From Cetorhinus maximus (lineage: Eukaryota), in assembly GCF_964194155.1 (NCBI RefSeq), contig NC_135900.1, positions 10,912,001 to 10,976,000 on the forward strand: DNA of 64,000 nucleotides, in the 5' to 3' direction. How positions within the stretch are numbered: the stretch's first letter is position 1; every line of letters starts with the position of its first letter. The notes under the pieces were generated by a model, which saw only the letters and a list, made by a program, of their open reading frames with translations, had not been told where the DNA came from and did not search any database. The position numbers and the translations under genes are program-made. Of the stretch, positions 4,842-47,160 are shown piece by piece.

Positions 4842-6399
4842 AAAGTCTGAGGCTTTGGATGGTTCTGACTTTGCAGAACAGTTACCCAGGAAATGTTAGA
4901 AGCATTAAAACCAGTTCTAACTCCTACTACTGAACCCTGACTCCCCTCACCCCACCAACAGACACCCTCACTACAGAACCCTATCCCCCAAGCTAACAGC
5001 CCTCCCAACTACTCCCCAACCCCGCCTACTCCATCTGAACACACAACTACCCCCTTGACCCACCAACTACCCACCGACTGGTCCCCATCCTGCAACTACC
5101 CACCCCACCCCTCAGGCTAGCCCCCATCCCCCATACCCAACTATCCTCCCTGGCCTCCTCTTGATGACCGCCCACCTGACTAGCCCGCATTTCCCCCGAC
5201 TACCCCCTCCCACCCCATGAACTACCTGACTAGTTGGAAGTCTGGGCAAGAAACGTGGAGCTCCAGTCTAAGGTTGGAAAATAACAGCAGATGGTAATCC
5301 AATGGTGATTGCCACTCCATGGAAGATTCACCCCAATATCTTTATTGCAACACTACTTCCTTAAATCCAGGATTTCTAATTATTCTTTCACTAAAGACTT
5401 TAACAGAATCAAACTTCTCATTCTGTAAAAAGTAACATTTCTAAGGAATATAAATGCAAATCTCATTAGAAGAGTCTGGCTTTGTGATTTGTCTATATTC
5501 ATAGATTATGAAAGTCTAATTGGGAACTGTTTTCTCCTGAGTCCAAAAGGCAGGTTTACATCTGGTGGGCTCAATGTTATTCAAGGAATGAACAATCTAT
5601 TTTCTTGAAATCTGCCTGTTATAATTCCAGCATCTATTATCAAATAAGACAGCTTCCTAACCACTGTACCAATTTTGTTTCATGACAAAGTCCTTGTTTA
5701 GGATTCAAATTTCGGAGTAACATTATAAGTTCTCCTTCCTTAAGCCTAAGTTTATGTAGTGGCATGCCCATTGGAGTTAGACTAGAAATTCTGCAGGGTA
5801 TAGACTGTTATCTTCATCTATGGAATCAAAGCTGATGTATTCTTTTTATTCACTTGGCAGCTTTTCTAAAGCTTTTTCATTCAAATGTAGTGAACCTTCA
5901 TTTTTAGCACAGAGTAGCTTTTGAATAATAAGTTGAATCAAATAATTGTTCCTGCCCTTTTTCCACACTTAACCAATTCCATAATCTCATCCACCTCTCC
6001 AATGCTATCCCCATCCCATGTCATTCCATCCTTCCTATGCTATCCCCCTCGTGTCAACCCATCCCATTCCTTCCATCTCTCCCACACCATCCCCTTTCTG
6101 CTCTTGCCATCCCCATTCCTCCCATCAACCCCATCCCATCCCTCACGGAAACAATCTCTCCAGCCAAAGCAACCTTGTTGTTGGGCTCTCCTTACCTTTC
6201 GCTGTTTTTAAAATTTTCCAGCAAACTATCCGCCCTACTGTTACCATCTTTGTGCATTAGCAGCCACACGTGTGTCATGCACTCCAGTCCTTGACGTGCC
6301 CCATATGCCTGTGCATGCACCAGACTCTGCCCACCAAGTAAACCCACCAACACATCTTAAACTGACCAATCAAAATCAGACAGACAAAAACAGGCTATT

Positions 6400-7200: not shown

Positions 7201-7355
7201 TGTAGGGCCATAGAGTATTACTCTGGTTCACTGGTTGTGGGCCTGCTCAGAAAGGTCTGCAGCCAATGTTTGATGTTGGTGCCTCATTCCAAGGTATGCC
7301 TGATGCTGCTCCTGGTATGCGCTTCTACACTTCCTATTAAACCATTGTTGGTCTC

Positions 7356-7635
7356 TGTTATGTCTTGGGTAAATAAGTTAGTTGGCCAACTAAATTCTAC
7401 CTGCATGTCTTCCTATGTTCTCATCAATTGCTGCTTGCAATCAATAATGGGGAGAGACTGATGTAAGAATAAAGAGATGGTTTATTGAGGCAAAGGGCAG
7501 AGCACCAGATCATTGCTTACTCAAACCTCCAGAACGGGACTTACAGTTCCCAGTTGTACAGTGATTTGTCAGTGCTGTCACATGATCAGTCCACTTGCAT
7601 TCTCTTAGAGGGACAGGGTACCTCACTTTACCACA
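7356..7635 (-). repeat. 3' LTR of the Gypsy element
   Basis: TG...CA termini; direct repeat of 11249-11543. Confidence 0.9.
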
Positions 7636-7834
7636 GCCCTTCCCCTTTACTTAAAAATACAGCTAACAAGCTTAAAACACTAACTATTTACAGATCAAGT
7701 CTCTTAGGAGGCCGCCTTTGATGGGTTGAGCGTTGTAGCCCAACAACCTCAGCTGGTGTTTCTGAGACCTCCTTTTCAGGGGCAGTTGCCCATTATGTCC
7801 TTCAGTGGATGATTTCGCCATCTTCCGGATGTAG

Positions 7835-8950
7835 TCACACAGAATCACAGTGCAGAAGAGGGACTTCAGCCCATTGAGTCTACATCGACACGTGAGGAAC
7901 ACCTAACCTACCTACCTAATCCCATTTACCAGTACTTGGCTCATAGCCTTGAATATTATGACGTGCCAAGTGCTCATCCAGGTACTTTTTAAAGGATGTG
8001 AGGCAACCCGCCTCCACCACCCTCCCAGGCAGTGCATTCCAGACAGTCACCACCCTCTGGGTAAAAAAAGATTTTCCTCACATCCCCCCTAAACCTCCTG
8101 CCCCTCTCCTTGAACTTATGCCCCCTTGTGACTGACCCTTCAACTAAGGGGAACAGCTGCTCCCTATCCACCCTGTCCATGCCCCTCATAATCTTGTACA
8201 CCTCGATCAGGTCGCCCCTTAGTCTTCTCTGCTCCAACGAAAACAACCCAAGTCTATCCAACCTCTCTTCATAACTTAAATGTTTCATCCCAGGCAACAT
8301 CCTGGTGAATCTCCTCTGCACCCCCTCCAGTGCAATCACATCCTTCTTATAATGTGGCGACCAGAACTGCACACAGTACTCCAGCTGTGGCCTCACCAAG
8401 GTTCTATACAACTTCAACATGACCTCCCTACTTTTGTAATCTATGCCTCGATTGATAAAGGCAAGTGTCCCATATGCCTTTTTCACCACCCCACTAACGT
8501 GCCCCTCCGCCTTCAGAGATCTATGGACACACACGCCAAGGTCCCTTTGTTCCTCAGGACTTCCTAGTGTCATGCCGTTCATTGAATACTTCCTTGTCAA
8601 ATTACTCCTTCCAAAGTGTATCACCTCACACTTCTCAGGGTTAAATTCCATCTGCCACTTATCTGCCCATTTGACCATCCCGTCTAAATCTTCCAGTAGC
8701 CCAAGACATGCAATCTCACTGTTAACCACCCGGCCAATCTTTGTGTCGTCCGCAAACTTACTAATCCTACCCTCCACACAGTCATCTATGTCGTTTATAT
8801 AAATGACAAATAATAGGGGACCCAGCACAGATCCCTGTGGTACGCCACTGGACACTGGCTTCCAGTCACTAAAGCATCCTCCTTTCATCACCCTCTGCCT
8901 CCTACAACGAAGCCAATTTTGAATCCACCTTATCGAATTACCCTGTATCA
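7835..8950 (-). mobile_element. Young 5'-truncated CR1 LINE nested in the LTR element
   Basis: 322-aa open RT frame 7989-8957 (SGVPQGSVLGPLLF, FADDTK, LVRPQLEYCVQFWSP); attctgtg-type tail at ~7835-7855. Confidence 0.93.
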
Positions 8951-11234
8951 CATTCACTCATGCTGTCCTTCCTCTCTAAGCTGAAACAGATAAAGGGTAA
9001 CAAGCGCAAAGCAATACAGCGATGAGCTACATGACGTGTGAGGAGATGTCTTTTTGTTTTTCTTTCCAAGGACTGTCAACGATTTCTTTTTTTCTTCCTG
9101 TGTGTCCTTTTCTTGGTAGCGCTGACCCGTATCTCTGTCTTCTCTTTAATTTCACTGTTGCCTGGACTAGACTCGGGTGCGAGCTGAAAGTGAATGTGAA
9201 TGAGCTCAGTAGTTGGGTTTTCCAACAGCTCTTCTGAGAATTCAGGGCCTTCTAGCTTTACAACTTCAGGGCTTTTACACAGCTGCTGTTTCAGCTCTTC
9301 CAATTCTTTCCTATTCCCATTAATAGTTTGCTGGAGAATCACATATCATTGCCACTTCTCAGCTAATTCGTTTCTTAACTTGGCCAGAGACAGACTTAAC
9401 TCTTCCTTTTCTTCTTCATATCTTTTTAGTGGCACAAATTGGGAGCTGATTGAATTTTGTAGCGCATGAAAGTCCTTTAATAGATTTTCCATTTCCTTTT
9501 GAAGGATGCTGACTTCAGCTTGAATTCTGTCCCGGTATAACAATTCTACGGGCTTCTCCCATTGGGTCTTTGTGTACTCATATTTTCTTGCAGCAACGCT
9601 TCTGGTTTTGAATTGGGAACTTAGCGGGCCCTCAAGATTTATCTCTCCCAGCCAGTTCCTTCTGAGGATACTCGGTCCCCTCCTTGACATTACAAATGGG
9701 GATAATTTTGCAGATTCATACTGCACCTTACTTGACATACCTCTTTCACATTTCTTTCTTTGCCTGTGTATGTGTCAACTTTGTGTCCAAAACTTCTAAC
9801 TTTAAAGGATTAGTTCCTTTACTCAGATATCTAAATGTGTGCTCTCCAATGATGTACATCGACACTCCAGTGTCAACTTCTATCTTAATGGGTTGTCCGT
9901 TAACTGTAATGACTATTTGGATTGGCTCAGTTCACTTGGCTCACTTTGAGGTTATATAACGAATAGATGTCTGTTTCTATTTCTTCTGGCTCTTCCATGA
10001 GATATACTTCATGATTTTTCCTTCTGCCTTTATAGTGTTGTTTTAGCCTTTCTCTGCAGTGCCGCCTTTTTACGTGGCCATAGCGGTGGTAGAAAAAGCA
10101 CTCGACTTGCTTGATTTGTCGTTCGCTCGCTGGCGGCCTGGATGTATTTCTCTCATTCATTTTGTGGGTTTTCATTGCAGTACCATTTGTCTTTCAATGG
10201 TTTGGAGTTAGAAAGCGTTTCCTGCCTTTCCGCGGAGTCCGAGGTTTTTGTGCCTTTTGTTGCTGGACTGTCCCGCTCAACCAGTTGGACGGCGCCATTT
10301 TGTGTATCTTTTATAACTTTGGAATTTCTAACAGCACTCTCCATTGCAGTAGCTGATTCTAATGCCTTATTGAGGTCTACACTCAGCTCGGCTAGCAAAC
10401 GCTTTTGGATAGTATTATCTCCAATCTTGCATATCAGCCAGTCTCTCAACATATCACTTTGGACGTCTCGAATTCACAACGCTCTGTTAATGCCTTTAAA
10501 ACAGCCACATAGTCAGCTATTGTCTCCTCTGGAAACCTGTTCCTTGAATTGAACTTGAAGCACTGCATTGTAACTGAGGGCTTTGGTCTCGGGTGGCTCT
10601 GTGCAGTTTTTATTAACTCATTGAAAGTCTTCGCGGCTGAGGCACTAGGTGACATGAGGCTGCGGATCAGCCCTTGCGTTTTGCTCCCGCATGAGGACAA
10701 AAGAATCGCTCTCTTCCCCTGCGATGTCATTAGTGGTAAAAAAGAACGCTAGGCATTCAACATACTGAGACCAGTCACCTGCAATGGGGTTGAATGGATC
10801 GACATGTCCAAACTGCGGCATCGTGAACAACTGCAAGGGGACTACACTTCTGATAGGCTTTCCAGGTAATGCCAAATTTAGGTGTTTGGCTTACCGCGGA
10901 GTTGCCCTCTCTCTGGGGTCTCTTATCATTTTCTGTCCATAGCCATTTTTCATGTGTTTACCCTTTTAAATGTATTGCCGTTTTAAGAGCAGTCACCGTT
11001 TTTTTAATTCTGTCTCTGCAGCTGTCTGCTTTTCTGTGCTGGGTTTTGTGCTTTTTTTGCTGAGTTTTGGCGGGATCCCTCTGATCGTGATTCTGCAGGG
11101 CTTTTTTTAAATTTTAAACTGCAGCACTGCTTTTTGCTCCGATTGCCAGCTGTCGCCTATTTTACAGGGTAAGTACAGATGTTCTTTCCAATTCTTTGCT
11201 CACGCGTCTTGAAATTTATTTTCTTTTGTTCTTT

Positions 11235-11247
11235 ATCCTCGTCGCCA
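11235..11247 (-). promoter_or_regulatory. Primer binding site TGGCGACGAGGAT (matches the 3' end of tRNA-Ser GCT as recalled)
   Basis: Plus strand atcctcgtcgcca immediately internal to the 5' LTR. Confidence 0.8.
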
Positions 11248-11248
11248 C

Positions 11249-11543
11249 TTTTATGTCTTGGGTAAACGAGTTCGTTGGCCAACCGAACTCTAACTGCACG
11301 CCTTCCTATGTTCTCATCAGTTGCTGCTTGCAATCAATAACGGGGAGAGACTGATGTAAGAATAAACAGTGATGGTTTATTGAGACATAGGGCAAAGCAC
11401 TAGATCATACTTGCTCACTCAGAAACCTGCAGAACTAGACTTACAGTTCCCAGTTGCCTGCACTGTACAGAGATTCATCAGTGCTGTCACTGATCAGTAC
11501 GCTTGCATTCTCTTAAAGGAACAGGGTACCTCCTTTTTCCACA
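11249..11543 (-). repeat. 5' LTR of the Gypsy element
   Basis: Direct repeat of 7356-7635; adjacent PBS; followed by TSD GTCTC. Confidence 0.9.
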
Positions 11544-11871
11544 GTCTCCAGACTTCCTGGAGATATTAATGAGCTGGACTCTGCAGGGTTGACAGAGCTG
11601 AGATTACATGGGGACATTTGCTTCTTGAAAAATAGCCTCTTTGATCGCTAAACACAACAAAAGTGACCTTATCCACTGTTCTTGGAAGAGAATTGAATTT
11701 GGCTTTCAAGGGCAAACCAGAACACACATGGAACAAAGTTGTAAATTTAATAGATAAGCAACTGTTATGTCATACCTTCATTACTTAAGTGGACATCATG
11801 TCAGTTTTTTTCTGTGGGTTTTATAAGCTTTGGGGATTTATTTTATTGTCATATAGAATATAGTTACTAAC

Positions 11872-14800
11872 CTGAGATGGAAGGAGAGATATCTTTTTCT
11901 CTGCTACCAGTTCTCTTCTCAGTAACCCAACTGTAGTCTTCAATCCAACGCCTAAATACAGCAGCCCACAACTCCTGAACAGAATGACAGTGAAGATATT
12001 CCTCCAGACAATCAGTCTCATTTCTGAATGCTCCACATACACGGAGTTCGTTAGCCAAAATAACCAGGACGATTGGAAGCGTGCTCAATTTTCTACTCAC
12101 AATAATTTGGAGTTGGATCTCATTTAGTTCTTTGTAGGGCATGGCCAAATGCTTCTGGAAGATATGGATTCTGAATTTATCATCAGTTCTATTGGAAAGC
12201 TGCACCACATTTGCTTCTTCATGCTTTGAAATTGATTTGTAGGCAAGGTTTGAAGTGGCAGTGGTTACAATAAGCTTGCACTGAGCTGGGAGGGGCCATG
12301 GAAGCCATGAGAATTCCTTTACCTGTAGGGAGTGGAATCACTGTTAGTATTAATTAATGAACAAGGGCATTTTGCAGAATAAGCATGGACAAGGCTTACT
12401 AATTATTCACAATGTGCAATATACTTCCTTGCTCGTATAATTTTTCAAAACCCTTTAGGAATAGAAATAACTACTTATCCAAGCTCCTTCTATTTGAACT
12501 TTGTAACATTCATGATCTATTTTGACCTCATCGTTGATTTGACAGTTATAAACTGTGCAGGTGCTGCATATTACTGAGACAAACTCCACTTTTGTTATCT
12601 TGTCATTGAATATTACGAATGGAATATACAAGACACCAACATCACCACTAGTATATATATTTTATTTCATATAATACTTGGATTATTATGATTCTTAGAT
12701 TTTCATTCTTTAGGCAAACTTTTTCAGTCCCCTGGTTTGAAGGTGGCAGTGCATGGCCTGCACGCTGATCCTCTGTGCCCATCAGATGCCCCCCCTACCT
12801 GTCGTCTTTTTTACAGGGGGACAGTGGAGGTGTTGGCAGCCCACCCACCAGTGGACCTATAGTGGCCCTCAAGTGGCCAACTAATGGCCACTTAAGTACC
12901 TCATCCCACATCCACCACTATATTACCCATGGCAAGGGGAGGCCCATGACAGACGGGTAGCCCTGAAGCTTTTACTGTGCAGGTTGATGTCGGGCCAGCA
13001 TGGGGGCACCTCCTTTGGGAGTCTCCTGTGCCCATCAGAAGCACCTCCCCAACAAGGCTCTATTCCCCCCCCCACCTTTTAAACCTGCTCCCATAGCCAC
13101 TCAAACCTGGCATCCATAACATTTTCTTTTTCAGGAACTGTCTGTAGTCCCAGCAGTGGCCACCGCTCGAGCTTGGCGCTGCTGGGACTAAGGAGCTGCC
13201 GGCAATCAGATTAGCTGGCAGCTCTCTAAAGTGGGACTTCCTCCCCAGATGTGGGTGGAATTCTCGACCTTAAGCAATTAACGCCCTTTGGAGGATTAAA
13301 AATGGCTGTGGGGCAACTGGGATCAGAGGGGATGGGTTCCCCGTTGACTTCCAAGTGGCGGGGCAGGAAACTGCATCATCCGAAAAATCTTGCCCTTTAT
13401 TTTTAAAAACTCTAAAGATCTGTTTTATCTTAAATTTATCATTAATAATGAGAATAATACCTGCTGTGCTGACAACCCACGGGTTCCAGTTAGTTGATCA
13501 GCACCATCTAGCACTAGCACACATGGTTTTAAACCAATCGCTGCTATGAAGGCTTCGCGGATCATAGGAAACATCCAAATATCTGTAGGATTTGCACTGA
13601 AAGCACCAGGGTGTTCTTCAGCTCCTGAAATTCAGTTATAAAAAATGTTTCATACTCACTGTGCATCATTTCATATTCACTTTCCAATGAGCTGACATCG
13701 ACACATACTGTTGCTCATGCACAAAGAAAAGGTCCATTTTCAATCCTGTCCCGATTTTAACTCAGGCCAAAAATTAGGGATTATGTGGGCCAAAGTGGGC
13801 AGTGAACTGTCCAGTTCCTCCAGAGCGTGAGGTCCACAAGATCTTATCACTGTCTCCCAATTAAAGACAGCGGGAATGGTGTCACTGGGAGTCACAATTG
13901 ACTGGTGGGGGGAGAGCAGGAGGCAGGCTGCCAATGGGCACACTTAGAAAAAGGTCCTGGCAAATTAAGCATCATTTTTTTGGACTGTTTGTTTTCTCAC
14001 ATTTGGGCTGCTTTTCTTGACTGCAGCCAGCCTGACACAGGTGGTCGGCTGCTTATTTGCATCTGCAACTTTTAGACATGGGCCCTGGCCACACTTAGGG
14101 TAGAACTTTTAGGTCGGCATGCAGGTGCGATTGGCGGGCCAGGGAATGAACATTTCAGCGTGCGTTTCATGTTCGCTGGCCATTAATGGGCCAGCCAGTG
14201 TGAAATCGTGGGTCAGGTGCGCGCCTGCACAATGAGCTATAAGTTCTGCCCTTAGATTTTTTGCCAATACCAATATGATAAGTGGTGCATTTCTGGCACG
14301 TAATGAGTATGTGCTTGCTGCCTGCAGTATTGGAGGCTTAGGTGCTCCTTTAGCACCTGAAAACTTGGCACAATATCTATGTTTGTCGGTCTCCAGGTAA
14401 GAAATAAAGCATGAGTGTTGGCTCTGTCTCTCACTAAAATAGTGATCTGTCAAAGGGGTGAACACCCAAAACATCAACCAATCTTTCGTACTTCCTTTCT
14501 TCCACAAACCTACTTAAAAAAAACTCTTGCTTATGTTCAACTTTTTGCCCATGGTAATTTTGTCCATGCCCAATAGTGAACATTACCACCTGTTCTGTAT
14601 ACCTTTATAAAAATATTGTCTACATTCAAGCCATCTTAAAATCAGCAGGAAATAGGCATATGCATGATTAACAGATATCGAATGGTTCCATTTTCATAAT
14701 TTGTTGTTTATTCTTTACTGACAAGCAATAGATCTTAACAATGTCCATAAATATTTCTCATGCTTGATTCTAAAAGAACAATTATACTCACCAAAATATT

Positions 14801-17800
14801 CGTGACGTAGTTTTAAAATACAGTGCCTCATAAAGGACATGATGTTGTGGCTGGCAGAGCTACTTCCCACAAAGTGAGTTATCACCAGGATATTCGGGTT
14901 TTTCTGCGTAAAATATTTTAGCCAGTTGCAGATCACTGTTGACTTGCCACAGCCTTTCTCTCCACAAAGTAATAGGACGGATGTACCCTGGGACACACGC
15001 CTGGATCTAGAAATTAACCAGAAGAAAAAAAATCAAAGCAATCAACATTAGTTGAGGTGTTAAATGAATACTTTGCATCTGTCTTTACCTATTAGGGAGA
15101 TGCTGCCCAGACCATGGTGATAGAGGGGGAAACTCCAATCACTAGAAGGGTTTAAAATTAATAAGGAAGAGGTATTGGATAAGCTGTCGGTACTTAAAGT
15201 TGATAAGGCACCGGGACCGGATGAAATGCATCCAAGAATATTGAAGGAAGTGAGAGTGGAAATTGCAGAGGCACTGGCAATAATCTTTCAATGCTGCCTA
15301 GATTCAGGGGAGGTGGTGGAGGACTGGACAATTGCAAACATTATGCCCTTGTTTAAAAAAAGGTTGTAAAGATCTACCCTGCAATTACAGACCAGTCAGT
15401 TTAACTTCAGTGGTGAGGAAACTTCTAGAAACAATTATTCGAGATCGAATTAATAGTCACGTAGAAAAATGTGGATTGATTTGGAAGAGTCAGCATGGAT
15501 TTGTTAAAGAAAAATCATGTCTAACTAACTTGCTGGAGTTTTTTTTTGAAGAGATAACAGTGTAGGTTGATTTAAGGCAAGGCCGTTGATGTGGTATATA
15601 TGGACTTCCAAAAGGCATTCGATACAGTGCCACACAACAGACTTGTGAGGAAAGTTCTAGGTCATGGAATATAAGAGACAGTAGCAATGTGGATACAAAA
15701 TTGGCTGAGGGATAGGAAACAGTAATGATTAATGGTATTTTTAGGGCTGGAAGAAGGTTTGTAGTGGAGGGGACAATGTGCAGGGGACAATTTCAAAGTT
15801 TGCGGGCGACACAAAACTTGGGAGAATTGTAAACTGGTGATCAAGATGGTGTAGAACTTCAAAAGGACATTGACACATTGGTGGAGTGGGCAGATAAGTG
15901 GCAGATGAAGCTCAATACAGAGAATTGAGAGATGATGCACTTCGGTACAAAGAACATGGAAAGACAGTATAAAATAAAGGATACTATTTTAAAGGGTGTA
16001 CAGAAGCAGAGACCTGGGTGTACATATACATAAGTCATTAAAGGTGATAGGACAGGTAGAGAGAGCTGTTACTAAAGCATACAGTATTCTAGGCTTCATT
16101 AGGGGCATAGAGTACAAGAGCAGGGAGGTTATGATGAACTTATATAAGACACTGATTAGAGCTCAGCAGGAGTATTGTGTACAGTTCTGGATGCCACACT
16201 CTAGGAAGGATGTGAATGCATTGGAGAGAGTGCAAAAGAGGTTTACGAGAATGGTTCCAGGGATGTGACACTTCAGTTATGAGGAAAGTTTGGAGAAGTT
16301 GGGACTGTTTGCCTTAGAGAGGAGAAGGCTAAGAGGGGAATTGATAGAAGTTTTCTAAATCATGAGGGGTCTGGACAGAGTACTTCGGGAGAAATTGTTC
16401 CTGCTCATAAACAGATCGAGATCCAGAGGGCACAGTTTTAAAGTGTTTTGAAAAAGAAGCAAATGCGAGGTGAGAACTTTTTTCACACAGCGATTAGTTA
16501 GGATTTGGAATGCACTGCCTGGAAGTGTGGTGGAGGCAGGTTTAATTAAGGCATTCAAAAGGGCATTGGATGAGTATTTACATAGAAACAATGTACAGGG
16601 TTACGGGGAAAAGGCAGGAGATTGGCACTAAGTTAAAATGTTCAGAGCAGGTGCAGACATGATGGGCTAAATGGCCTCCTTCTACACCATAACGATTCTG
16701 TGATTATAGCTATTTTAACCCACCCACCACGCCGCCTCCACCAACCTCATAACTAACATATTATTCTAACACAGTTGCCATGGTGATTCCATGAAGCTGC
16801 TAATAAATTAACTATATTTGATATGGATTTCATGGCACTGTAGCATTGATTATTTCTCATGTTTTAAATATTCTTGATCTGAACAAAGACAAAATCTCAA
16901 TGGTATTTTTTTTTTCTAAAAGTGGTGTTCCTTCAGGTCTTGTGCTGCAGTTGTAGCCACCCTACCTCTGAGTCAGGAGCTCTTGAGTTTAAGTCCTGCT
17001 TCAGGACTTGATGGCCATAGAAAGTGTGGCCAAACAGGTTGATTATCAGGTTGTAAATCCTTCTAATAAGCCTGATGGCAGGTGGTAAGAGCAGGAGAGT
17101 TTCCTGGTCAGCCATATTGCAGAAGGAAACAGCAAACCACTGCAGTACTTTACCAAGCATAACCATGGACCAATCCAATGGAATTCCATGGTTGCCAATG
17201 GCCCCTTAGGGCATTGTACCTGGAGGAGGAGGTGTTCCAGCCTGAAAAAAGTACTGCTCTCTCCCTGTAACTTGTGACCCCCGCCCCCCACCCCATTTTA
17301 TATTTTCCCTTCCACAAAATTATTTCCTGGTTGTAAGAATGGAGAGAAATTGATTTCATAATTTGCATTTATAATTGTTGCTTCACACACATTTACCATC
17401 ATCCAGTGCTGCAATCATAGCTGTGATAGATTTGCACTGCCATGCTAATGATATCGTTGTCATGGTGGTATTAGCACCTTGTCAATTATTACAAAAGAAC
17501 ATATTAAAACTAATAGTTAGGAAAAGTAGTGAGAGAATAAATGGCAAGAATAAAATGGGTATCTGTGAATGGAAATACAATAGAACAAGACTGAAGGGAA
17601 TTCAGAATGTAAAACAAAGTTTAATAATCTAATGTCATGTTTATGAACATGGGGAAAGGTTGCTATCTAAGGCCTTTCAGTCATAGAGCACTGAGGGGGC
17701 TGAAATTGTATAAAACGCCTTGAGCTGTATGACTCACATTGAATGTATACAGTAAATAATATATGCACCACAATTGCATTGAAGCACCTCAAAGTGCAAT

Positions 17801-20800
17801 ATCATCTATGCAGATAACTTGAATATCATTGCATTTACTGTGGTGGCCATTTTGAAGTGTTTGTAATGTTCTTTTAGATATTTACCAAATCAAGTATATT
17901 TTTTGCAACAAACAAAATGCCATGTTCATGAACATTACAATTGCACAAGGCTGAATCAAAATTCAAGGCTTTTCCTTGAAACCACACCTGGGCTTCATTG
18001 TACAGAAGGCACCGGTACGATTAAAGTCAGTTAATCCACTGTTGGCTTCAATTTGAACGTCATGTTGGGAAGAGACAGCAAATTTGTCCAGAATTCTAAA
18101 AACCAACCGTGTTTCTTTTGTTTCCACAAAAACTTGGCAATACCTTTGAGAAAATGCTTCATGATAACAAAGCTCTAGATAACTTTCATGATCTGAAAGA
18201 GAGAACATTCCTGGAAAGGTTCATTTGTTCCAGTGCTATGCAGTTCAATGAAAACAGTTAACATTTACTACTTTTGGTTTAATTAAAACTGGGTCTATCG
18301 CATGCCATAATATATCTTTATTATATTGCAAAGTATGCTCTATAAAGCCAATGTTCTACTACATCCAGTCTAACTGTAACACACAAAATAAAATCTTCAA
18401 ATGATCTACAGTAGATATCAGGTTTTTTTTAGTTATCTGATTTTATAATGCACTGACTTACGATTTATATGACTATGTGACACACTGTCGTTTTAATTCA
18501 AGGCAACACAGCTCCATAACCAGGGTGAATGGTTTGTCCTTAGTTCCACACTACAGGTAAATATAGCAGCTAATCCTCTGCCTCTCACTAATAGGGAATA
18601 ATTCTTAAAACCATTCATCTTAAATGTATATTGATCTACTTTTCATTCTCATCAAAGCCAGGAAGTGGATACGAAGGGCGGAATCATTCCAGATTTGCAC
18701 AAAGTGCAGTAGCGGACAGGGAAAAAGGACGTTTTATCTGCTAGCCACAGTGGCGGGTTTTCGCGCTGTATCATCCCATTCCCGGTGTGTCCCACCTCAT
18801 TAATAATGCATTCTCAGAAATATGCCAGATTGCTGGTTGGGCAGCCTCTGATTCGCCCACCCCACCTTCACCTCAGGCCTTCAATAATCTGGGTGCCCCT
18901 GCACAGAGCTAGCTCTCTAAGGGATCGGAAACTGCTGAAAAGTCACGGCTGCCCAAAGGAGGAAACATGCCTCCAAAGTTAGCGACGCCTCCCTCGGGCG
19001 CCTACTGGACACAGTGGAGGCCCAGCATGAAGTCCTCTACCCCGCTCTGGGCGAAGGCCAGCAAGCAAGGTCATCAATCCAGCATGGGAAGAGTGGCAAC
19101 GGTGGTCAGCGCCAACACCCAGTAAAAGAGGACAGCCACTCAGTACCGAAAGAGAATGAATGATCTCCGTTCCGCCAGGGTGAGTCACTCTCTTATCACT
19201 CTCAACACTCTCATTCTCAAACCCATCACACATCTACAGGGATCTCACTCACTGCCAGTTCAAAGGACATCATCATTTACTCTCTCTCAAACACTTTCAT
19301 CTGCCTGCGGATCATGTCCTCATCCTGTCCATAGCACCAAGCATCACCCACACATCCCAGGTATCCTTCTCACCTGGCCTGGTGGGTGTCCTGATTACAC
19401 TCTCTCCATCTGTATTCATGCAGGACAAGCTGGCACGCAAAAGGGAGAGGTCGCAGACTGGCGGAGGAATGCCTGACCTCCAGGTCCTCATAGACTTTAA
19501 AAATAGAGCCACCCAGCTGGCTGGTGAAGATCTGGACCGTTCCTGTGCTGACAGTGAGGTTAGCGGTGCTCAACCAAATGAGGATCCAGCAGTGCAACAT
19601 CCATCAGACAACCATGCTGAGTCACTCTCCCTGTTCTGCAGCCCCCTGCCATACACTAATTATCTCTCCTTGCTTTCACAGGAGAAAATTTCAATTTGAA
19701 CATCATGTTGGGAAGAGACAGCAAATTTGTCCAGAATTCTAAAAACTAACCGTGTTTCTTTTGTTTCCACAAAAACTTGGCAATACCTTTGAGAAAATGC
19801 TTCATGATAACAAAGCTCTAGATAACTTTCATGATCTGGAAGAGAGAACATTCCTGGCAAGGTTCATTTGTTCCAGTGTTACACAGTTCAATGAAAACAG
19901 TTAACATTTACTACTTTTGGCTTAATTAAAACTGGGTCTATCGCATGCCACAATATATCTTTAATTATTATATTGCAAAGTATACTCTATAAAGTCAAAG
20001 GGGTCCATGAGCCAGGTCCTCAACTCAAGACCTGATGACACCTCGGAAGAAGAATCTGATGACAATCTAATTGAAGACCCATCACAGCGCTCACCCACAC
20101 CCTCCACCAGTACAGAGACACACACCTCGGTGGGATCTAGTTCTACAGTACCCTCGGCGTCACAATCTGGTGAGCACGTCTGTCTGATCCACAGCAGTCG
20201 GCAGCAGGGACTTCCCAGGTTTCTGACACTCGAAAGACTGCTGGAAGCCAGAGGTCTGCTGAGTCCAAGTCCGATGATGAGCCTCTGGACTCGATCACAC
20301 CTCAGTTGCTGGAACTGCAAAGGCAAGCTTGGGAACATCAGGAAGGGATGTCCGCTGCACTCAGATTGCAAGGCACGATGGAGGAGACTGTCCACCTCCA
20401 GGCTGAGGTGACAGCTCTGGCATGCCAATGCACCGAGGTCAACACTGGTAGGATGGTGGCCGCCACAGGAGACCTTGGGCCAGGCTGTGTGGGCTGGACT
20501 CCGTCGCTGATGTCCTAGTTGGCCTCCAACAGTGTCAATGCAAGAAGGGTGCGAGGCAGCTCGATCTCGCTCCAGTTTCCCCATCCCTTCAAGGAGTCAG
20601 CCAGGGGCCCTCAGGCACCCATAGGGAGGAGGATCAGCAGGTGTACACCCCGGGGCCATCCACCCAGGTGACTCCGGGAGTGTCCAATCCATCCAAATCC
20701 CCTCTTCCTGTGACCCCAACAGCTCCAGCTCCACAGGCTGAGGGTGCCACTGCCACACAGCAGGACCCTGAAAGCAGGCCAGGACCCTCCAGAGGATGCC

Positions 20801-23800: not shown

Positions 23801-26594
23801 TCTATGCCCACCCCCGTACAACCCCCCCAATGGGGAAAATTCTACTCTGGGAGCTAGATTAATTATGGGATTTAGCAGTTATCATGGTAGTAATTTGTAG
23901 ACCTATGTATGTGCTTAAAATGATTTCAATTATTAATAAATGCTTAATTTAGTTTTGTAAAAAAACCTCTAAGACTCGGTCTTATTACTACTGAATTCAA
24001 GGCACGCATCTTGAAATAAAAATACAAATTGCAAAATAGTTGTGGCAGCTGTTTCAAGTTTCCCTCTGGGATTTGAACAGGTTAGCATTTACCATCCACT
24101 GTGCCATAACAATTATCACAAGTACCTAAATGTTGTAAGGCAAGAAACCAATAAACATATTCTCATCATCTCTGTAATGTCTTTCTTTTATTCTTTCACG
24201 GGATGTGGGCATCGCTGATAGGCCAGCATTTATTGCCATCCCTAATTGCCCTTGAGAAGGTGGTGGTGAGCTGCCTTCTTGAACCGCTGAAGTCTGTGTG
24301 GTGTAGGTATACTCAGTGCTGTTAGGAAGGGAAATCTACCCATTAGAGAAACATTGAAATGGCCAATTTCTACAAAACTGGCCCTGAAGTGTGGTACGAC
24401 ACCATGGGCTTGATTTTCAATCTGGGTTTGGGAACTCCATAACAAAAACAGAATTACCTGGAAAAACTCAGCAGGTCTGGCAGCATCGGTGGAGAAGAAA
24501 TCAGTCAACGTTTCGAGTCTTCATGACCCTTCGGCAGAACTTCTGCCGAAGGGTCATGAAGACTCGAAACGTTGACTGATTTCTTCTCCACCGATGCTGC
24601 CAGACCTGCTGAGTTTTTCCAGGTAATTCTGTTTTTGTTTTGGATTTCCAGCATCCGCAGTAGCTTCTAGCTTTTTGTTTTTATCTTTGGGAACTCCATG
24701 CCTGGATCATTTTTGGGTCCGGTTTCTGTGGCATTCTGCATCACTGAGGCATTACTATCTTTCAAATCCAGATCCCCCAGTTGGACCAGAGACAAGTTTG
24801 ACACGCAATTAATGGTGCAGAGTGCTACAAGGAGGTGGAAGCTGACTGCTGAGTATAATCCTCAAAGGCAGATGACAGCCAGGACTGGGCTTGCCTCTGC
24901 CTTGCAGAATAGAGGAGACAGAAAATCAGAGGGCTCGCAGCCTCTCAGCAGAGAGAAGTGGCCAAATGCCAACAAAAAATTACTGCACTTGATCTGAGCC
25001 AATAACCCTTTTTGGCAAAATGTTTACTTCAGATAAATATGATTTGATGGCTCCCCTACATTGTGCCCAAAAGCTGTGCACTAATATGCTCCAGAATGTT
25101 TGGTCTGCCAATCTGCGACTTGAAACTTATCTTCTAGCCCTCCCCAGCCCATTACCCAGCTCCTCAAGGAGTTTAAAAGGCAATTAATTGGAGGTAAGTG
25201 GATTCCTAATTTCCCCACCCGCCCTTGCTTTGAAAATACCAGCACACCCCAGAGGCATCAGGACACTGACATGCCATCCAGAGTGGCATTTTCAAAGTGT
25301 GCTCGCAGCCAATCTTGCCCCCATGGTGATTGAAAATCAAGCCCCATGATGTTCAACCCTGATTAGGGATTCCACAGATAGAGGAGGCTTTGCACATTCC
25401 ATTGTGCTTCAACACTACTGACATGAATAGCGAAGAGATGGACCTTTTCTTCAACATACTCCCCATTTCATTGGCTAAAATAACATGGCAAACAAACTTC
25501 ACGTTATTAATTCAACTTAATAAAATTTTGTTCAATGTTTTCTTTTCTCTTTGATTTGATAATGTAATAATGTAATGATTGAGGAATGAATCTAACAACA
25601 GTAAACTTTCCCAAGTCCAATTTCAAACAATGACGGGAAGTTATTTTTCAGTATATTGACTGAAGAATAACCTCTAATCTGTGTCCTTGAGGAAGAGGTT
25701 GTTTCAATAACACAAGTAGCCAATTGTGTTAAAAGCTGAGCCAAGAACAGAACTGTAGTTGACCTTATTACAAGATCACACGATAAGCTTACCTGTTTGC
25801 AAAGGAACTAAATCCATGGGATACAACTTGTCAATGACATCACTACAGTTTTTCAAAACTGCTTCTCCTAATTCTTCAACTGTCCTAAAAATTTTGACAG
25901 GTAATCCTTTATTGACTATCTTTTCCTTCAGCTCCCTCACTCTCCGTTCCTCATAATGATCTCTGTGGTTATATTTACTCGCTATCATTTCCCTTTTATC
26001 TTGTGGGACATGCAAAAGTATATCATCGACATACTGGGAATCTCGGAAATAAAAGAAGCTGAACACAGAGTCATTCAGTAAAGCTGCTTCAGTTATCTCG
26101 AGCTCTAGCAGACTGCAGTTTTTGTATTCTTCGCGCAATATCCAAGAGTAACCGTTTCTTGCTGCGATATGAATATTCCTTTCTACCTTGGATAAAGCTT
26201 CCATATCCATTCTACCCGCTGGAGAGCACTCTGCATCTGGTGGGCAATACTCACCATATTTCTGACCTAACATGCATATGAAGAAAGGTGAGCATTTTGA
26301 GATGAAGTCTAGTGAAACCTTTAGCTGGTGGGAATCTGTGCTCTGGCGATGGCTTCCTTCGTGTGATGTCCACTGCATATCTAATACTTTAAAGCAGCTT
26401 CTTCTGGTGTTACAGAGTTCACTTAGAAGAGGAAAAATATCATTTTCCAAATAGTTTCTTTCCTCTTGAAAATCCTCACATGTTGAACAGAGATATACCT
26501 GAATGGGTGGTCGATAGGTGAAATCTGGGTGGCATGTAAGACATTCACTTTCCTCTGTCTTGGATTTGCTCTGTCTTTTTATACATTCATTCAT
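11872..26594 (-). CDS. TTC41: TTC41-like protein (DUF4062-like N-terminus + STAND/NACHT-type P-loop NTPase), 5' part; further exons not found in the window
   Basis: Phase-consistent GT-AG exons 26594-25793, 18210-17988, 15006-14792, 13624-13461, 12322-11872 (~618 codons, no stop); PPIQVYLCST..DFQEERNYL, SPFFICMLGQKYG, Walker A CGEKGCGKST, Walker B CVLVLDGADQL, FSWLPWPLPAQCKLIVTT; head-to-head with HSP90B1 like mammalian TTC41. Confidence 0.85.
12712..13395. mobile_element. Decayed Harbinger-type MITE
   Basis: GC-rich island with termini aggcaaactttt / aaaaatcttgccc. Confidence 0.45.
14098..14251. mobile_element. 154-bp Harbinger/Tourist-like MITE
   Basis: TIRs gggtagaactt / aagttctgccc; TTA target-site duplication at 14095-14097 and 14252-14254. 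Confidence 0.75.
15050..16705 (+). mobile_element. CR1 LINE fragment (decayed ORF2 + 3' tail)
   Basis: DKAPGPDEMHPRILKE, NYRPVSLTSVV, SQHGF..SCLTNLLEFF, LERVQKRFTRMVPGM; tail gattctgtgatt. Confidence 0.9.
16925..17260 (+). mobile_element. tRNA-derived SINE-like repeat
   Basis: A/B-box-like head; shares ggcagg..taagagcaggaga..cagcca core with 47400-47640. Confidence 0.5.
18676..22710. mobile_element. PIF/Harbinger DNA transposon (decayed) with convergent Myb/SANT gene (+) and HARBI1-like transposase remnant (-)
   Basis: + strand spliced Myb/SANT remnants (SDASLGRLLDTVEA..AWE.VA..VSA..RTATQYRKRMNDL, donor 19180; DKLA..RERSQTGGG; acidic S/T/P-rich exon from ~20000); - strand GDLCKILQASMHKCIQEVTDAIF at 21002-21196; ends gggcggaat / atgtccgacc followed by TAA. 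Confidence 0.85.
19690..19994 (-). repeat. 305-bp duplicate of TTC41 exon/intron sequence 18047-18347 inside the Harbinger element
   Basis: Manual alignment: 10 substitutions plus one 4-bp insertion; acceptor AG retained at 19855-19854. Confidence 0.95.
23169..23218. repeat. Perfect 25-bp tandem duplication
   Basis: aaaattattctaatttattgtaaag x2. Confidence 0.9.
23590..23850 (-). mobile_element. MITE fragment related to 4031-4841
   Basis: Reverse complement of the gggcgggccaattaaggccc / aagagagcaggaatctcc segment. Confidence 0.6.
24406..25344. mobile_element. Harbinger-type MITE with perfect 17-bp TIRs
   Basis: GGGCTTGATTTTCAATC at 24406 and its reverse complement ending 25344; 3-bp TSD CAT on both sides. 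Confidence 0.85.
24441..24685 (+). mobile_element. Penelope-like pseudo-LTR fold-back insertion
   Basis: 99-bp perfect inverted arms 24441-24539 / 24541-24639 plus ~46-nt tail; 14-bp TSD tttgggaactccat; same sequence as the pLTR at 46220-46368. Confidence 0.9.
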
Positions 26595-29597: not shown

Positions 29598-43104
<13,507 letters not shown>

Positions 43105-43320: not shown

Positions 43321-45281
43321 ACTTTTCCACAAACTTGTTCAAGCTTGATTTAGGTTTCATATTGTACAATTTTAAGATATCAATTTTAGTTGAAACAATT
43401 TTTTTGGGGTGTGGGTGGAAAGGAAGTGTTTCCCTATACATGTTGCCAGGATTTTTAAAAAAATGGTACGGGCTGAAATTTTTCTCAAAAGGTACAAAGC
43501 TGAGGGCCTGGATAGTGGATGGGAAAGGCTTTTATTTGCTTTAGCAGAAAGATCAATGACTAGGGGGCATAAGATTTAATGATTGGTAGAAAGATTAGCA
43601 ATGTGGATTTTTTTCATAGGGTTCAGGGTAGTAGATTAGAAATGTTCAACTCAAGGTGTCAGCATAGGCACCTAAAGTGCTGTAATAAGCAGAGCTAGAC
43701 CAAATACTGGAAAGTGGGGTAGGCCAAGTGACTTCTGCTAACTTTCCAAAATTCTAACTTCGCCTTTTGAATAAGTAGGTAATAAGATTGTAGCCTTGTC
43801 ACTTTCATAAGAGTCCATTGAGCATCAAGCTGTATGGCTAGTAATCTCTAACTTGGAGTAAGGATTTTCCTCTTGCTAGAGGCTGAATATTTGTCATTCA
43901 CAATCAAATGTAGTATTGGCACTTCAGGACAAACTGGATAGCTTTACCAATCACCTTGGTAATTTTTTTCCTCTTCTAAGTGTTTGGATTAACCAGTTCA
44001 ATTAAATCTGTTGGCACAACTCTGCCTTCCAGAACACAACTTTCCACTTAAGTTTCCTTATGTTGCTTGGATCTCTTCCAGTTAACTTAAATCTGTAGTG
44101 TTGCAGTGGTATTGATTTTCATATTGTTTTGTGTAGGAAGAGATCTTAAACTCTCCACTCCCAAGTACTTTTTATTCTTAACTGTCAATAGTAAAATGTA
44201 TTATAGATTTTCCTCTAGTGACATCCCAGTTCTTCAGAAGATGGGTTTTTAACTCATTTCAACTAGAATCCTGCAAGTTGCCTGTTAGTTTCAGAGTATG
44301 ACCAGATCTGAAGATGAGTTTATAGGTTTTTAAACTTGCATTAGTCAAAATTTAAGGAATTATTGTCTGAAGTGCTTGTTTAAGCCCACTTGAGTAATCA
44401 GGAACATGAGGTAAGCCAGAGTGGCAACTTATTGATCTGCCTGCCTTGCTGGGACAATTATTCCACAAGCTGAACTGAGTCATTCATAACAAAAACAGAA
44501 TTACCTGGAAAAACTCAGCCCAACCGTGTCCGGCCTATCTCCCGTGCATCCGCCCTCATGCCTTCTCCCAGAAACATGATAGGGTTCTCACTTATCACCC
44601 CACCGGCCTCCACATTCAAAGGATCATCCTCTGCCAACTCCAGCATGATGCCACCACCAAACACATCTTCCCTTCACCCCCCCCCCCACCGGCGGCATTC
44701 CGTAGGGATCATTCCCTCCGGGACACCCTACTCCTCAACCCCCACCTATGGCACCTCCCCATGCCCACGCAGAAGATGCAACACCTGCCCCTTCACTTCC
44801 TCTCTCCTCACCGTCCAAGGGCCCAAACACTCCTTTCAAGTGAAGCAGCATTTCTCATTTCCCCTTAGTCTACTGCATTCGTTGCTCCCAATGCGGTCTC
44901 CTCTACATTGGAGAGACCAAACGTAAACTGAGCGACTGCTTTGCTGAACACCTGCAGTCTGTCCGCAAGAAAGACCCAAACCTCCCTGTCGCTTGCCATT
45001 TTAACACTCCACCCTGCTCACTTGCCCACATGTCTGTCCTTGGCTTGCTGCATTGTTCCAGTGAAGCCCAACGCAAACTGGAGGAACAGCACCTCATCTT
45101 CCGACTAGGCACTTTACATCCTTCTTGACTGAATATTGAATTCAACAACTTTAGATCTTGAACACCCTCCTCCGTCCCCACCCCCTTTCCGTTTCTTCCC
45201 CCTCCCTTTTGTTTTTTCCAATAATTTATATAGATTTTTGTTTTCCCACCTATTTACATTATTTTTAAATCTATACCTGTA

Positions 45282-45848
45282 ATGCCCTGTCAGTCTTTCC
45301 ACCCCACCCCCACTAGAGCTGTACACATCTTCCCTTCACCCCCCCCGACGGCATTCCGTAGGGATCGTTCCCTCCGGGACATCCTGGTCCACTCCTCCAT
45401 CACCCCCTACTCCTCAACCCCCACTTATGGCACCTCCCTATGCCAACGCAGAAGATGCAACACCTGCCCCTTCACTTCCTCTCTCCTCACCGTCCAAGGG
45501 CCCAAACACTCCTTTCAAGTGAAGCAGCATTTCACTTGCATTTCCCCTAACTTAGTCTACTGCATTCGTTGCTCCCAATGCGATCCCCTCTATATTGGAG
45601 AGACCAAACGCAAACTGGGCGACCGCTTTGCAGAACACCTGCGGTCTGTCCGCAAGAAAGACCCAAACCTCCCTGTCGCTTGCCATTTTAACACGCCACC
45701 CTGTTCTCTTGCCCACATGTCTGTCCTTGGCTTGCTGCATTGTTCCAGTGAAGCCCAACGCAAACTGGAGGAACAGCACCTCATCTTCCGACTAGGCACT
45801 TTACAGCCTTCCGGGCTGAATATTGAATTCAACAACTTTAGATCTTAA
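45282..45848 (+). CDS. Penelope GIY-YIG endonuclease domain (C-terminal fragment of the element ORF)
   Basis: CQRRRCNTC Zn motif; NLVYCIRCSQCDPLYIGETKRKLGDRFAEH; VACHFN; GTLQPSGLN. Confidence 0.85.
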   Translation: MPCQSFHPTPTRAVHIFPSPPPTAFRRDRSLRDILVHSSITPYSSTPTYGTSLCQRRRCNTCPFTSSLLTVQGPKHSFQVKQHFTCISPNLVYCIRCSQCDPLYIGETKRKLGDRFAEHLRSVRKKDPNLPVACHFNTPPCSLAHMSVLGLLHCSSEAQRKLEEQHLIFRLGTLQPSGLNIEFNNFRS

Positions 45849-46218
45849 ACTCCCCCCTCCCCCCATCCCCACCCCGTTTCTCCCCCCTCCCTTTTTTTTC
45901 AATAATTTATATAGATTCTTCTTTTCCCACCTATTTCCATTATTTTTAAATCTAAAACTAAAACTTTTTTAGTCTTTCCATCCCACCCCCACTAGAGCTG
46001 TACCTTGAGTATCCTGTCTTCCATTCTTAATTAGCACTTTTCTCAGACAATATCACCACCTTCAACACCTCTTTGATCCTTTTGTCTGTGACATCTTTTG
46101 ATTATCTGCTCCTATCACACTGCTTGCTTATCTCCACAATCACCACACCCTCAACTTCTCTCTCCCCCCGCCCCCACACCTTAGACCAGCTTATATTTCA
46201 CTTTTCTCCTAACTATAC

Positions 46219-46261
46219 TCAGTTCTGCCGAAGGGTCATGAAGACCCGAAACGTTAACTGA
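46219..46261 (+). ncRNA. Minimal type-I hammerhead ribozyme motif, variant core CUGCCGA
   Basis: Stem I UCAGUU/AACUGA; CUGCCGA-A; stem II GGGUC-AUGAA-GACCC; GAAA; palindromic ACGU helix III; lies in a Penelope pLTR. Confidence 0.7.
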
Positions 46262-46571
46262 TTTCTTCTCCACCGATGCTGCCAGACCTGCTGAGTTTTT
46301 CCAGGTAATTCTGTTTTTGTTTTGGATTTCCAGCATCCGCAGTAGCTTTTAGCTTTTTGTTTTTATCTCTGTACCTTGAGTGTCCTGCCATCCATTCTTA
46401 ATTAGCACATTCTCTTAGATAATATCACCACCTTCAACACCTCTTTGTTCCTTTGTCTGTGACATCTTTTGATTATCTGCTCCTATCACTGCTTGCTTGT
46501 CCCTACAACCACCGCCCCCCACCCCCCCAACTTAAACCAGCTTATATTTCACCCTTCTCCTAATATTACTC

Positions 46572-46610
46572 AGTTCTGTTGAAGGGTCATGAGGACTCGA
46601 AACATCAACT
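46572..46610 (+). ncRNA. Second minimal hammerhead-like motif, core CUGUUGA
   Basis: AGUU-CUGUUGA-A-GGGUC-AUGAG-GACUC-GAAAC-AUC-AACU in the second pLTR. Confidence 0.55.
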
Positions 46611-47160
46611 CTTCTTCTCCACCGGTGCTGCCAGAACTGCTGATTTTTTCCAGGTAATTCTGTTATTGTTTTGGATTTCCAGCATCCACAGTAGTTTTTT
46701 GTTTTTATCTCTGAGTCATTCATAACCCCACTGGTTGAGTCTAGGATAATTTAGTTACCCTTTTTTTCATCTTGCAAAGCTAGTTTCTCATTCCAATGTC
46801 AGCACAAGTAATCAAGTTCATATCACATGTATAAACCACTTTTGTGCTTTATAAATATTTGACCTTCAAATGTAGGTCTGGCATATTAAGTGCATTTCCT
46901 TTTTACTTCCAATGCAAGGAAAATTAAAGTTATGGGAGATGGGTGTTACAGTTCTGCTTTTCTGCAGTTAGGTGGTGCAAGAATTATACTAGTTTATTTG
47001 ATCCTTATAGAAATGGTTCATGCAACACCAGCCTTTGAACAGTTTAATAGCCCAGTAAAGAATCTTAACATGTTAATCATGCCCACATTTTTAAATATAG
47101 ATCTGTCATGTCATCTACATTTAAATAAATTCAAGTTGGATCATAGCTGTCCCATATACT

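What the first reader, a model, noticed from the sequence alone, without database searches (positions are those of the whole stretch)
9076..9738. Gypsy/Mag LTR element in which RT-RNaseH-integrase is replaced by an in-frame, cellular-looking coiled-coil (UACA/RAI14/ANKRD24-like)
Seen: the element has both LTRs, TSD, PBS, PPT, gag, protease (DTG) and the extreme pol C-terminus (RRPPKRLDL*), but no RT, RNaseH or integrase core. Straight after the protease end (GPSILRRNWLGEINL) the same frame continues ~200 codons with one stop (TGA 9348-9346, possibly a decayed CGA). It encodes a heptad-rich segment QAEVSILQKEMENLLKDFHALQNSISSQFVPLKRYEEEKEELSLSLAKLRNELAEKWQ*YVILQQTINGNRKELEELKQQL and ends in a basic tail (KKRTHRKKKRNR). 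Inference from recalled sequence: the [FY]VPL..[YH]EE pattern and register resemble the coiled-coil repeats of the UACA/RAI14/ANKRD24/ANKRD35 family. That would make it a transduced host-gene fragment fused to Gag-PR in a non-autonomous LTR family.
Basis: partly seen in the sequence, partly recalled or inferred. Interest (0 to 1): 0.75.

Follow-up and report, generated by a model that had tools for sequence, protein, structure and literature searches.

The report
Shark retrotransposons carrying captured UACA coil
Hundreds of old jumping genes in a shark genome lack their copying enzymes and carry, in their place, a stolen piece of the host gene UACA that kept evolving as protein and moved from one element family to another, likely because it helps the element's proteins stick together.

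Summary
Confirmed and extended. The window holds a dead copy of a 3.1-kb non-autonomous Mag-type (Gypsy) LTR family with at least about 275 copies. After the protease, 185 codons replace RT, RNaseH and integrase. The coiled coil comes from the large exon of host UACA (46% identical; E 1e-8 against 1.8 billion proteins). Older LTR families in the same genome carry 1.55 kb of that exon at 74-88% DNA identity, joined to 271 nt of a second host gene, ninein; nested deletions lead from them to the window's family. The cassette sits on two unrelated autonomous Mag backbones (one clade rejected, p-AU 1e-64), with the crossover in the protease end. Between families it evolved under purifying selection (dN/dS 0.19-0.43, against 0.7-1.1 among inserted copies), and a parallel homodimer is predicted (0.41, best control 0.02). 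Best reading: a Gag-PR-coil fusion whose coil likely replaces RT as multimeriser, mobilised by helpers; this role is untested. LTR capture of host genes is known (Bs1, Tan 2016); long selection inside the element and transfer between backbones I did not find described.

The parts
11544..11548 (.). target-site duplication GAGAC (left)
11249..11543 (-). 5' LTR
   Evidence: 89% identical to the 3' LTR
11235..11247 (-). primer-binding site (tRNA-Ser type, recalled)
   Evidence: similar sequence in 16 of 16 full-length copies
9931..10821 (-). Mag-type gag with one CCHC-type knuckle, broken by frameshifts and stops in this copy
9634..9930 (-). aspartic protease (DTG 9874-9866); last ~15 codons come from the family-C side of the crossover
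9544..9633 (-). linker of 30 codons, positionally homologous to the linker and first UACA residues of family C
9289..9543 (-). UACA-derived coiled coil (host exon residues 536-620), one stop at 9348-9346
9118..9288 (-). diverged remains of the second UACA segment (after a 450-nt deletion), a linker of unknown origin and at most ~6 codons of ninein; homology inferred through families C, B and O
9076..9117 (-). basic tail and stop codon
   Evidence: mean 7-8 K+R in the last 14 codons in families A and C
7839..8947 (-). nested LINE RT fragment (CR1-like, name recalled), private to this copy
7688..7838 (-). remnant of the pol C-terminus
7637..7648 (-). polypurine tract
7356..7635 (-). 3' LTR
7351..7355 (.). 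target-site duplication GAGAC (right)

Best explanation
This is a dead copy of a multicopy non-autonomous Mag-type LTR retrotransposon in which a captured piece of host UACA is fused in frame behind Gag-protease, and the piece likely acted as a predicted two-stranded coiled coil that would multimerise Gag-protease in place of the lost RT, while RT and integrase would come from autonomous helper elements. Shown: donor, copy family, frame, descent from an older UACA+ninein cassette, change of backbone, purifying selection between families. Inferred: capture by template switching on co-packaged mRNA, translation, helper dependence, cis-preferential packaging. Predicted only: homodimer. Untested: effect on protease activation or particle assembly. 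My odds: origin 0.97; translated and selected inside the element 0.85; multimeriser role 0.5.
For: Donor. Ladder host-O-B-C-A in identity (81, 80, 74, 54% over one segment) and tree, with shared ends at exon nt 865 and 2415 and a shared 450-nt deletion. Ninein nt 1097-1367 at 73-86% in O copies. Backbones: family A sister to autonomous lineage Z150 (100/100), family C with lineage Z139 (100/100), A+C as one clade rejected, p-AU 1e-64 (32 rows, at most 5 a group); crossover in the protease end. Selection: net dN/dS C1 to A 0.27 (0.13-0.49) at kappa 2.5, 0.19-0.43 over kappa 2.5-6 with or without CpG codons, against 0.68-1.07 within A; 17 of 2000 bootstraps reach the within-family value; shifted frames give 1.06 and 3.5; gag and protease of A against Z150 0.25 and 0.27. 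Hydrophobic share at predicted core positions 0.71-0.75 in host and all four families against 0.09-0.18 elsewhere. Two long helices, pLDDT over 90. Homodimer score 0.41, best control 0.02, pLDDT 80, runs agree in 89% of contacts; the mark was reached by 17 of 29 eukaryotic self-pairs and 0 of 30 single chains. Precedent: a leucine zipper behind HIV-1 protease raises Gag-PR multimerisation and cleavage (PMC3291649, abstract), and RT contributes to protease activation (PMC11998509, abstract).
Against: Net dN is no lower at the predicted interface than outside it (0.29 against 0.32). The segment is only 79 codons and dS is near saturation. On earlier branches constraint is not significant (O-B 0.71, B-C1 0.56, C1-C2a 0.9; intervals include 1). 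Families O and B, where the cassette arose, show no Mag protease, and their gag-like piece is in phase with UACA in only 4 of 14 copies, so the first capture cannot be explained by protease activation. In HIV-1 the zipper lowered particle yield through premature cleavage (PMC3291649, abstract). A coiled coil may pass the complex test by likeness to solved coils. No expression evidence.
Confidence: 0.5

Rival explanations
1. The coil and basic tail are a trafficking module: they bind host partners of UACA or ninein (actin, centrosome, dynein; recalled) or act as a nuclear localisation signal, steering mixed particles to the nucleus or germ line and giving the defective RNA an advantage.
For: Two captured donors are both cytoskeletal coiled-coil proteins; outer positions are as constrained as the interface; the basic tail is kept in families C and A.
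Against: Ninein is cut to a few codons in C and A; 54% of coil residues differ from the host, which fits a generic dimer better than a specific host contact.
Confidence: 0.22
2. The coil is a tolerated spacer: selection only keeps a soluble open frame from Gag-protease to a basic RNA-binding or import tail, or protects the RNA from decay.
For: No interface-focused constraint; weak constraint on early branches; in-frame deletions are expected anyway, as 62-78% of microhomologies in the exon are in frame.
Against: dN/dS 0.19-0.43 in the coil but 0.5-1.0 in the segment next to the tail; the heptad core survived about one synonymous change per site; the cassette was carried to a second backbone.
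Confidence: 0.16
3. Constraint came from the host: a domesticated Gag-coil gene (Fv1-like restriction factor, recalled) evolved as a host gene and was later re-captured or copied.
For: Two sister-family copies are annotated as genes by NCBI; a Gag-protease-zipper can poison assembly (PMC3291649, abstract).
Against: Synonymous distance O to C to A is about 1.0-1.4, while copies of O have decayed by about 0.11 and of A by 0.06 per site and host-to-O is 0.14: far too fast for a host gene. All 51 A loci behave as decaying insertions.
Confidence: 0.07
4. Ordinary Pol linker, chance coiled-coil likeness or a single-copy insertion.
For: Pfam gives only weak generic coil hits; a word-based search with one copy found nothing; no blastn hit between family A and the host exon.
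Against: Autonomous Mag elements continue from the protease into RT with an unrelated linker; profile hit to UACA; DNA-level intermediates at 70-89%; hundreds of copies.
Confidence: 0.01

Closest known systems
Maize Bs1 (read through PMC5131818 section 10 and PMC13317346 passages; primary papers not held)
   Same: Non-autonomous LTR element carrying fragments of several host genes in a chimeric frame, with secondary retrotransposition.
   Different: Bs1 has one to five copies; here there are four families with at least 150 scored copies each, about one synonymous change per site accumulated inside the element lineage, and transfer between autonomous backbones, in a vertebrate.
LTR-mediated retrocopies in animals (Tan et al. 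2016, PMC5131818; passages and section 10 read, supplements not read)
   Same: Partial host mRNA pieces inside LTR elements, multi-parent chimeras, sense and often in frame; template-switch model.
   Different: Those cases are young, low-copy and viewed as new host genes; here the piece became a long-lived selected part of the element's own polyprotein.
Acutely transforming, defective retroviruses with Gag-onc fusions (recalled)
   Same: Host coding sequence fused to gag in place of pol; helper dependence.
   Different: No env; germ-line retrotransposon; passenger is a structural coiled coil, not a signalling protein; persistence over a long evolutionary time.
Engineered HIV-1 Gag-protease-leucine zipper (PMC3291649, abstract)
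   Same: A foreign dimerising coil placed at the protease C-terminus in place of RT.
   Different: Artificial, and harmful to particle yield there; here a natural, amplified arrangement of unknown effect.
Mag-clade Gypsy elements (K02A2.6-like Gag-Pol; clade name recalled)
   Same: Gag, protease, LTR, PBS and pol C-terminus are of this type; autonomous relatives exist in the genome.
   Different: RT, RNaseH and integrase are replaced; LTRs end in AA in 15 of 16 full-length copies.

Membership tests
Gypsy/Mag LTR retrotransposon (backbone) | LTR pair, TSD, PBS, PPT | tested here: met
   TSD exact in 11 and within one mismatch in 16 of 16 full-length copies (16 of 39 loci passed the two-LTR filter).
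Gypsy/Mag LTR retrotransposon (backbone) | Gag and protease homologous to single-ORF Gypsy Gag-Pol | tested here: met
   103 hits, best 38% over 98%, named K02A2.6-like where named; sister to an autonomous lineage in the genome.
Gypsy/Mag LTR retrotransposon (backbone) | RT-RNaseH-integrase in Gypsy order | tested here: not met
   Absent from family A; so not an autonomous member. Present in its sister lineage.
Gypsy/Mag LTR retrotransposon (backbone) | Placement in the Mag clade by RT phylogeny with named references | not tested
   Clade name rests on recalled gag and PBS features and on database names.
Non-autonomous LTR retrotransposon family | Many dispersed copies with own TSDs and the same internal structure | tested here: met
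Non-autonomous LTR retrotransposon family | Mobilisation in trans by a helper | not testable with these tools
   Candidate helper lineage Z150 shares LTR, gag, protease and tail at 66-77%; mobilisation itself is inferred.
LTR-mediated gene transduction (Bs1 type) | Host coding sequence inside the LTRs, donor gene intact elsewhere | tested here: met
   UACA exon on contig C27 (911 codons open), ninein exon on C19 (576 codons open).
LTR-mediated gene transduction (Bs1 type) | Intron loss showing an mRNA template | tested here: inconclusive
   Both pieces lie within single large exons, so no junction can be checked.
LTR-mediated gene transduction (Bs1 type) | Microsimilarity at the capture junctions | not tested
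   Short overlaps are seen at internal deletions; the outer junctions were not analysed.
LTR-mediated gene transduction (Bs1 type) | Transcription and translation of the chimera | tested here: inconclusive
   Selection implies past translation; no RNA holder listed.

The most novel reading that the evidence does not exclude
Selfish exaptation in reverse: a vertebrate LTR lineage domesticated a host coiled coil as a portable multimerisation module that replaces RT in Gag-protease, was trimmed and optimised over many replication cycles, and spread by recombination to several autonomous Mag lineages, turning each into a successful defective parasite.
Probability: 0.4. Interest if true: 0.88.

Novelty: new variant of a known kind. 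Interest (0 to 1): 0.76.

Why it matters
Captured host genes in LTR elements are usually seen as young, low-copy passengers or as raw material for the host. Here a whole series of intermediates is preserved in one genome, from a 1.8-kb two-gene capture to a trimmed 85-residue coil with about one synonymous change per site, under selection in the element and moved between backbones. It gives a direct case for asking how defective elements outcompete their helpers and whether a foreign dimeriser can stand in for RT in protease activation. It also warns that some annotated shark 'uncharacterized' coiled-coil genes are copies of these elements.

Tried and rejected
Word-based protein search with one copy against longer proteins: none of 2002 candidates. 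PDB search: nothing significant. Atlas searches gave generic coil clusters only; the ninein-like top rows are not used, since the main coil scores 68 against the ninein exon, inside the shuffle range. In-frame internal deletions as evidence of selection: rejected as weak, null 62-78%. Gag-like piece of families O and B: no Pfam or BLAST support, phase unresolved; its gag nature is recalled only. Constraint on the segment before the basic tail: not shown (0.52-1.03; alignment imperfect). Expression: no RNA holder listed; contigs of two runs guessed to be RNA are not counted. Whether the window's own insertion is shared with the other two organisms stays open. My first two TSD counts had off-by-one errors and are replaced. 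Rows dropped: L052, L092 and L093 as duplicates or near-duplicates; 17 and 3 loci in the gag and protease blocks for missing or poor alignment; family labels C1, C2a, C2b and Z groups were set after seeing trees, but the A+C group tested was defined by cassette content. Literature searches (listings only) and a term search in PMC13343379 found no report of UACA or ninein capture by LTR elements; Repbase and Dfam could not be searched and may list the family without this reading; supplements of PMC5131818 were not read.

Full report
Observation. The minus-strand element spans 11543-7356 with 89% identical LTRs, a GAGAC target-site duplication, PBS, PPT, gag, protease and a pol C-terminal remnant. 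After the protease end, 185 codons (9633-9079) run in the same frame with one stop. This copy is dead: gag and protease are broken, and a 1.1-kb LINE fragment is nested behind the insert.

Family. The insert is not private. All 40 scored of 836 DNA candidates match it over nearly its full length, the 39 other copies at 88-90%, and 150 of 150 scored protein candidates match. An exact 20-mer occurs 113 times and is intact in 21 of 51 sampled copies, giving at least about 275 copies (the sample is biased to close copies, so this is a lower bound). Full-length copies are about 3.1 kb, with median LTR identity 88.5% and 5-bp TSDs in 16 of 16. A Mag Pol query hits no family-A element. The coil is in phase with the protease end in 36 of 47 measurable copies (30 at one distance) and with the basic tail in 40 of 51; gag to protease is in phase in 19 of 40, the commonest single distance being in phase. 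The window's stop recurs in 19 of 51 copies and 32 read through. Two other coded organisms hold 22-27% of the sampled words, and three of the listed DNA contigs from them bridge the protease-coil junction, so the family is old and not confined to this species.

Donor. A profile of natural copies against 1.84 billion proteins gave three hits: ray UACA (E 1.2e-8) and two proteins labelled Cetorhinus maximus that are encoded exactly in this genome. The host UACA exon (911 open codons) was found on contig C27. The window's coil matches residues 536-620 without gaps at 46% (score 183; heptad-preserving shuffles mean 65, maximum 97 of 1000; two paralogue-like exons 75 and 83); 51 of 52 family-A loci hit the same stretch.

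History. The two annotated hits belong to sister repeat families with at least 150 scored copies each. Family O carries exon nt 865-2415 at 74-89% DNA identity, followed by 271 nt of the large ninein exon at 73-86% (E 3e-36 to shark ninein), in phase in 17 of 25 measurable copies. Some O copies, family B and family C share a 450-nt deletion. Family C puts the trimmed cassette behind a Mag gag-protease; three of its copies still keep RNaseH or integrase parts behind it. Family A shares C's derived residues, deletion, linker and basic tail. Identity to the host falls 81, 80, 74, 54% from O to A, and the tree is a ladder with a long branch to A (bootstrap not fully settled). Gag and protease tell another story: A is sister to autonomous lineage Z150 and C groups with lineage Z139; holding A and C together is rejected (p-AU 1e-64). 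A's LTR and tail also resemble Z150, and identity switches from Z150 to C within the last ~15 codons of the protease. The cassette therefore moved between backbones by recombination in the protease gene; the O/B backbone, with a different LTR and no Mag protease, is a third carrier.

Selection. I compared natural copies pairwise and subtracted within-family distances, masking stops and gaps. Over 79 codons of the coil, net dN/dS from C1 to A is 0.27 (0.13-0.49), range 0.19-0.43 over kappa 2.5-6 and CpG masking, against 0.68-1.07 within A; 17 of 2000 bootstraps reach the within-family value. Gag and protease show 0.25 and 0.27 between A and Z150. Earlier branches are mixed: O-C2a 0.19-0.26 and B-C2b 0.32-0.46, but O-B 0.71, B-C1 0.56 and C1-C2a 0.9 with intervals that include 1. 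The segment before the tail shows no clear constraint. Synonymous distance along O-C-A (about 1.0-1.4) far exceeds the decay of inserted copies (0.11 for O, 0.06 for A) and host-to-O (0.14), so the change accrued during repeated retrotransposition, not in a host gene; time in another host by horizontal transfer is not excluded.

Structure. AlphaFold2 gives two long helices broken at the FVP motif and a disordered tail. A parallel in-register homodimer is predicted (0.41, best control 0.02; pLDDT 80; 89% contact agreement; 17 of 29 eukaryotic self-pairs and 0 of 30 single chains reached this mark; may be from memory). Core positions are hydrophobic in host and all families (0.71-0.75 against 0.09-0.18), but net dN is the same inside and outside the interface.

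Mechanism. Most likely, mRNA pieces of UACA and ninein were captured by template switching (model of PMC5131818, section 10 read; intron loss cannot be checked, both pieces are intra-exonic). The defective element made its own Gag(-protease)-coil protein, which would co-assemble with helper Gag-Pol and favour its own RNA. In single-ORF Mag elements the coil stands where RT stood; in HIV-1, RT aids protease activation through Gag-Pol dimerisation (PMC11998509, abstract), and a zipper at that place raises multimerisation and cleavage, though it lowers yield (PMC3291649, abstract). I give the multimeriser role 0.5, trafficking 0.22, spacer 0.16 and host domestication 0.07.

Known and new. Capture by LTR elements is known from Bs1 and from young animal retrocopies (PMC5131818; PMC13317346, passages). 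Seven literature searches found no report of this family or of UACA or ninein capture; repeat databases could not be searched. The scan's notes had no look-alike; one note describes host mosaics fused to Gag in a BEL/Pao family of another animal. Verdict: new variant of a known kind, interest 0.76.

Noticed in passing
family A copies, L014-L048; window 11249-11255: LTRs end in AA rather than CA in 15 of 16 full-length copies, with exact TSDs directly behind; the window's 3' LTR ends in CA.
   Followed up: partly
L086:4592-4676 and 4948-5092: Two in-frame stretches flanking the ninein piece in family O match neither UACA nor the ninein exon; they may come from further host donors.
   Followed up: no
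L053/L054 (G000:C3) and L089 (G000:C1): NCBI-annotated uncharacterized genes P0004 and P0003 are ORFs inside LTR copies of families B and C; the P0004 copy is duplicated 43 kb away.
   Followed up: partly
window 11867-15032, minus strand: The element lies in sense orientation downstream of exons of a NACHT/NPHP3_N-like gene (weak Pfam hit), probably in an intron.
   Followed up: no
L119, L120, L122: Family-C copies that keep RNaseH-end or integrase coding sequence behind the cassette: deletion intermediates between autonomous and minimal forms.
   Followed up: partly
L072:2730-2938, L075, L078: Family B has a ~74-nt tandem repeat in its 5' untranslated region.
   Followed up: no
L127, L144, L149: Autonomous-type Mag copies with internal pol deletions; several Mag lineages with about one or more synonymous change per site between them coexist (32730 first-look candidates).
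   Followed up: no
window 24431-24689, 42193-42433, 44482-46713: A family of near-palindromic ~220-250-nt repeats (87-98% identical) and a 660-nt inverted pair.
   Followed up: no
window 18047-19998: A second pair of 95-97% identical ~300-nt direct repeats 1.64 kb apart, possibly a young short LTR element.
   Followed up: no
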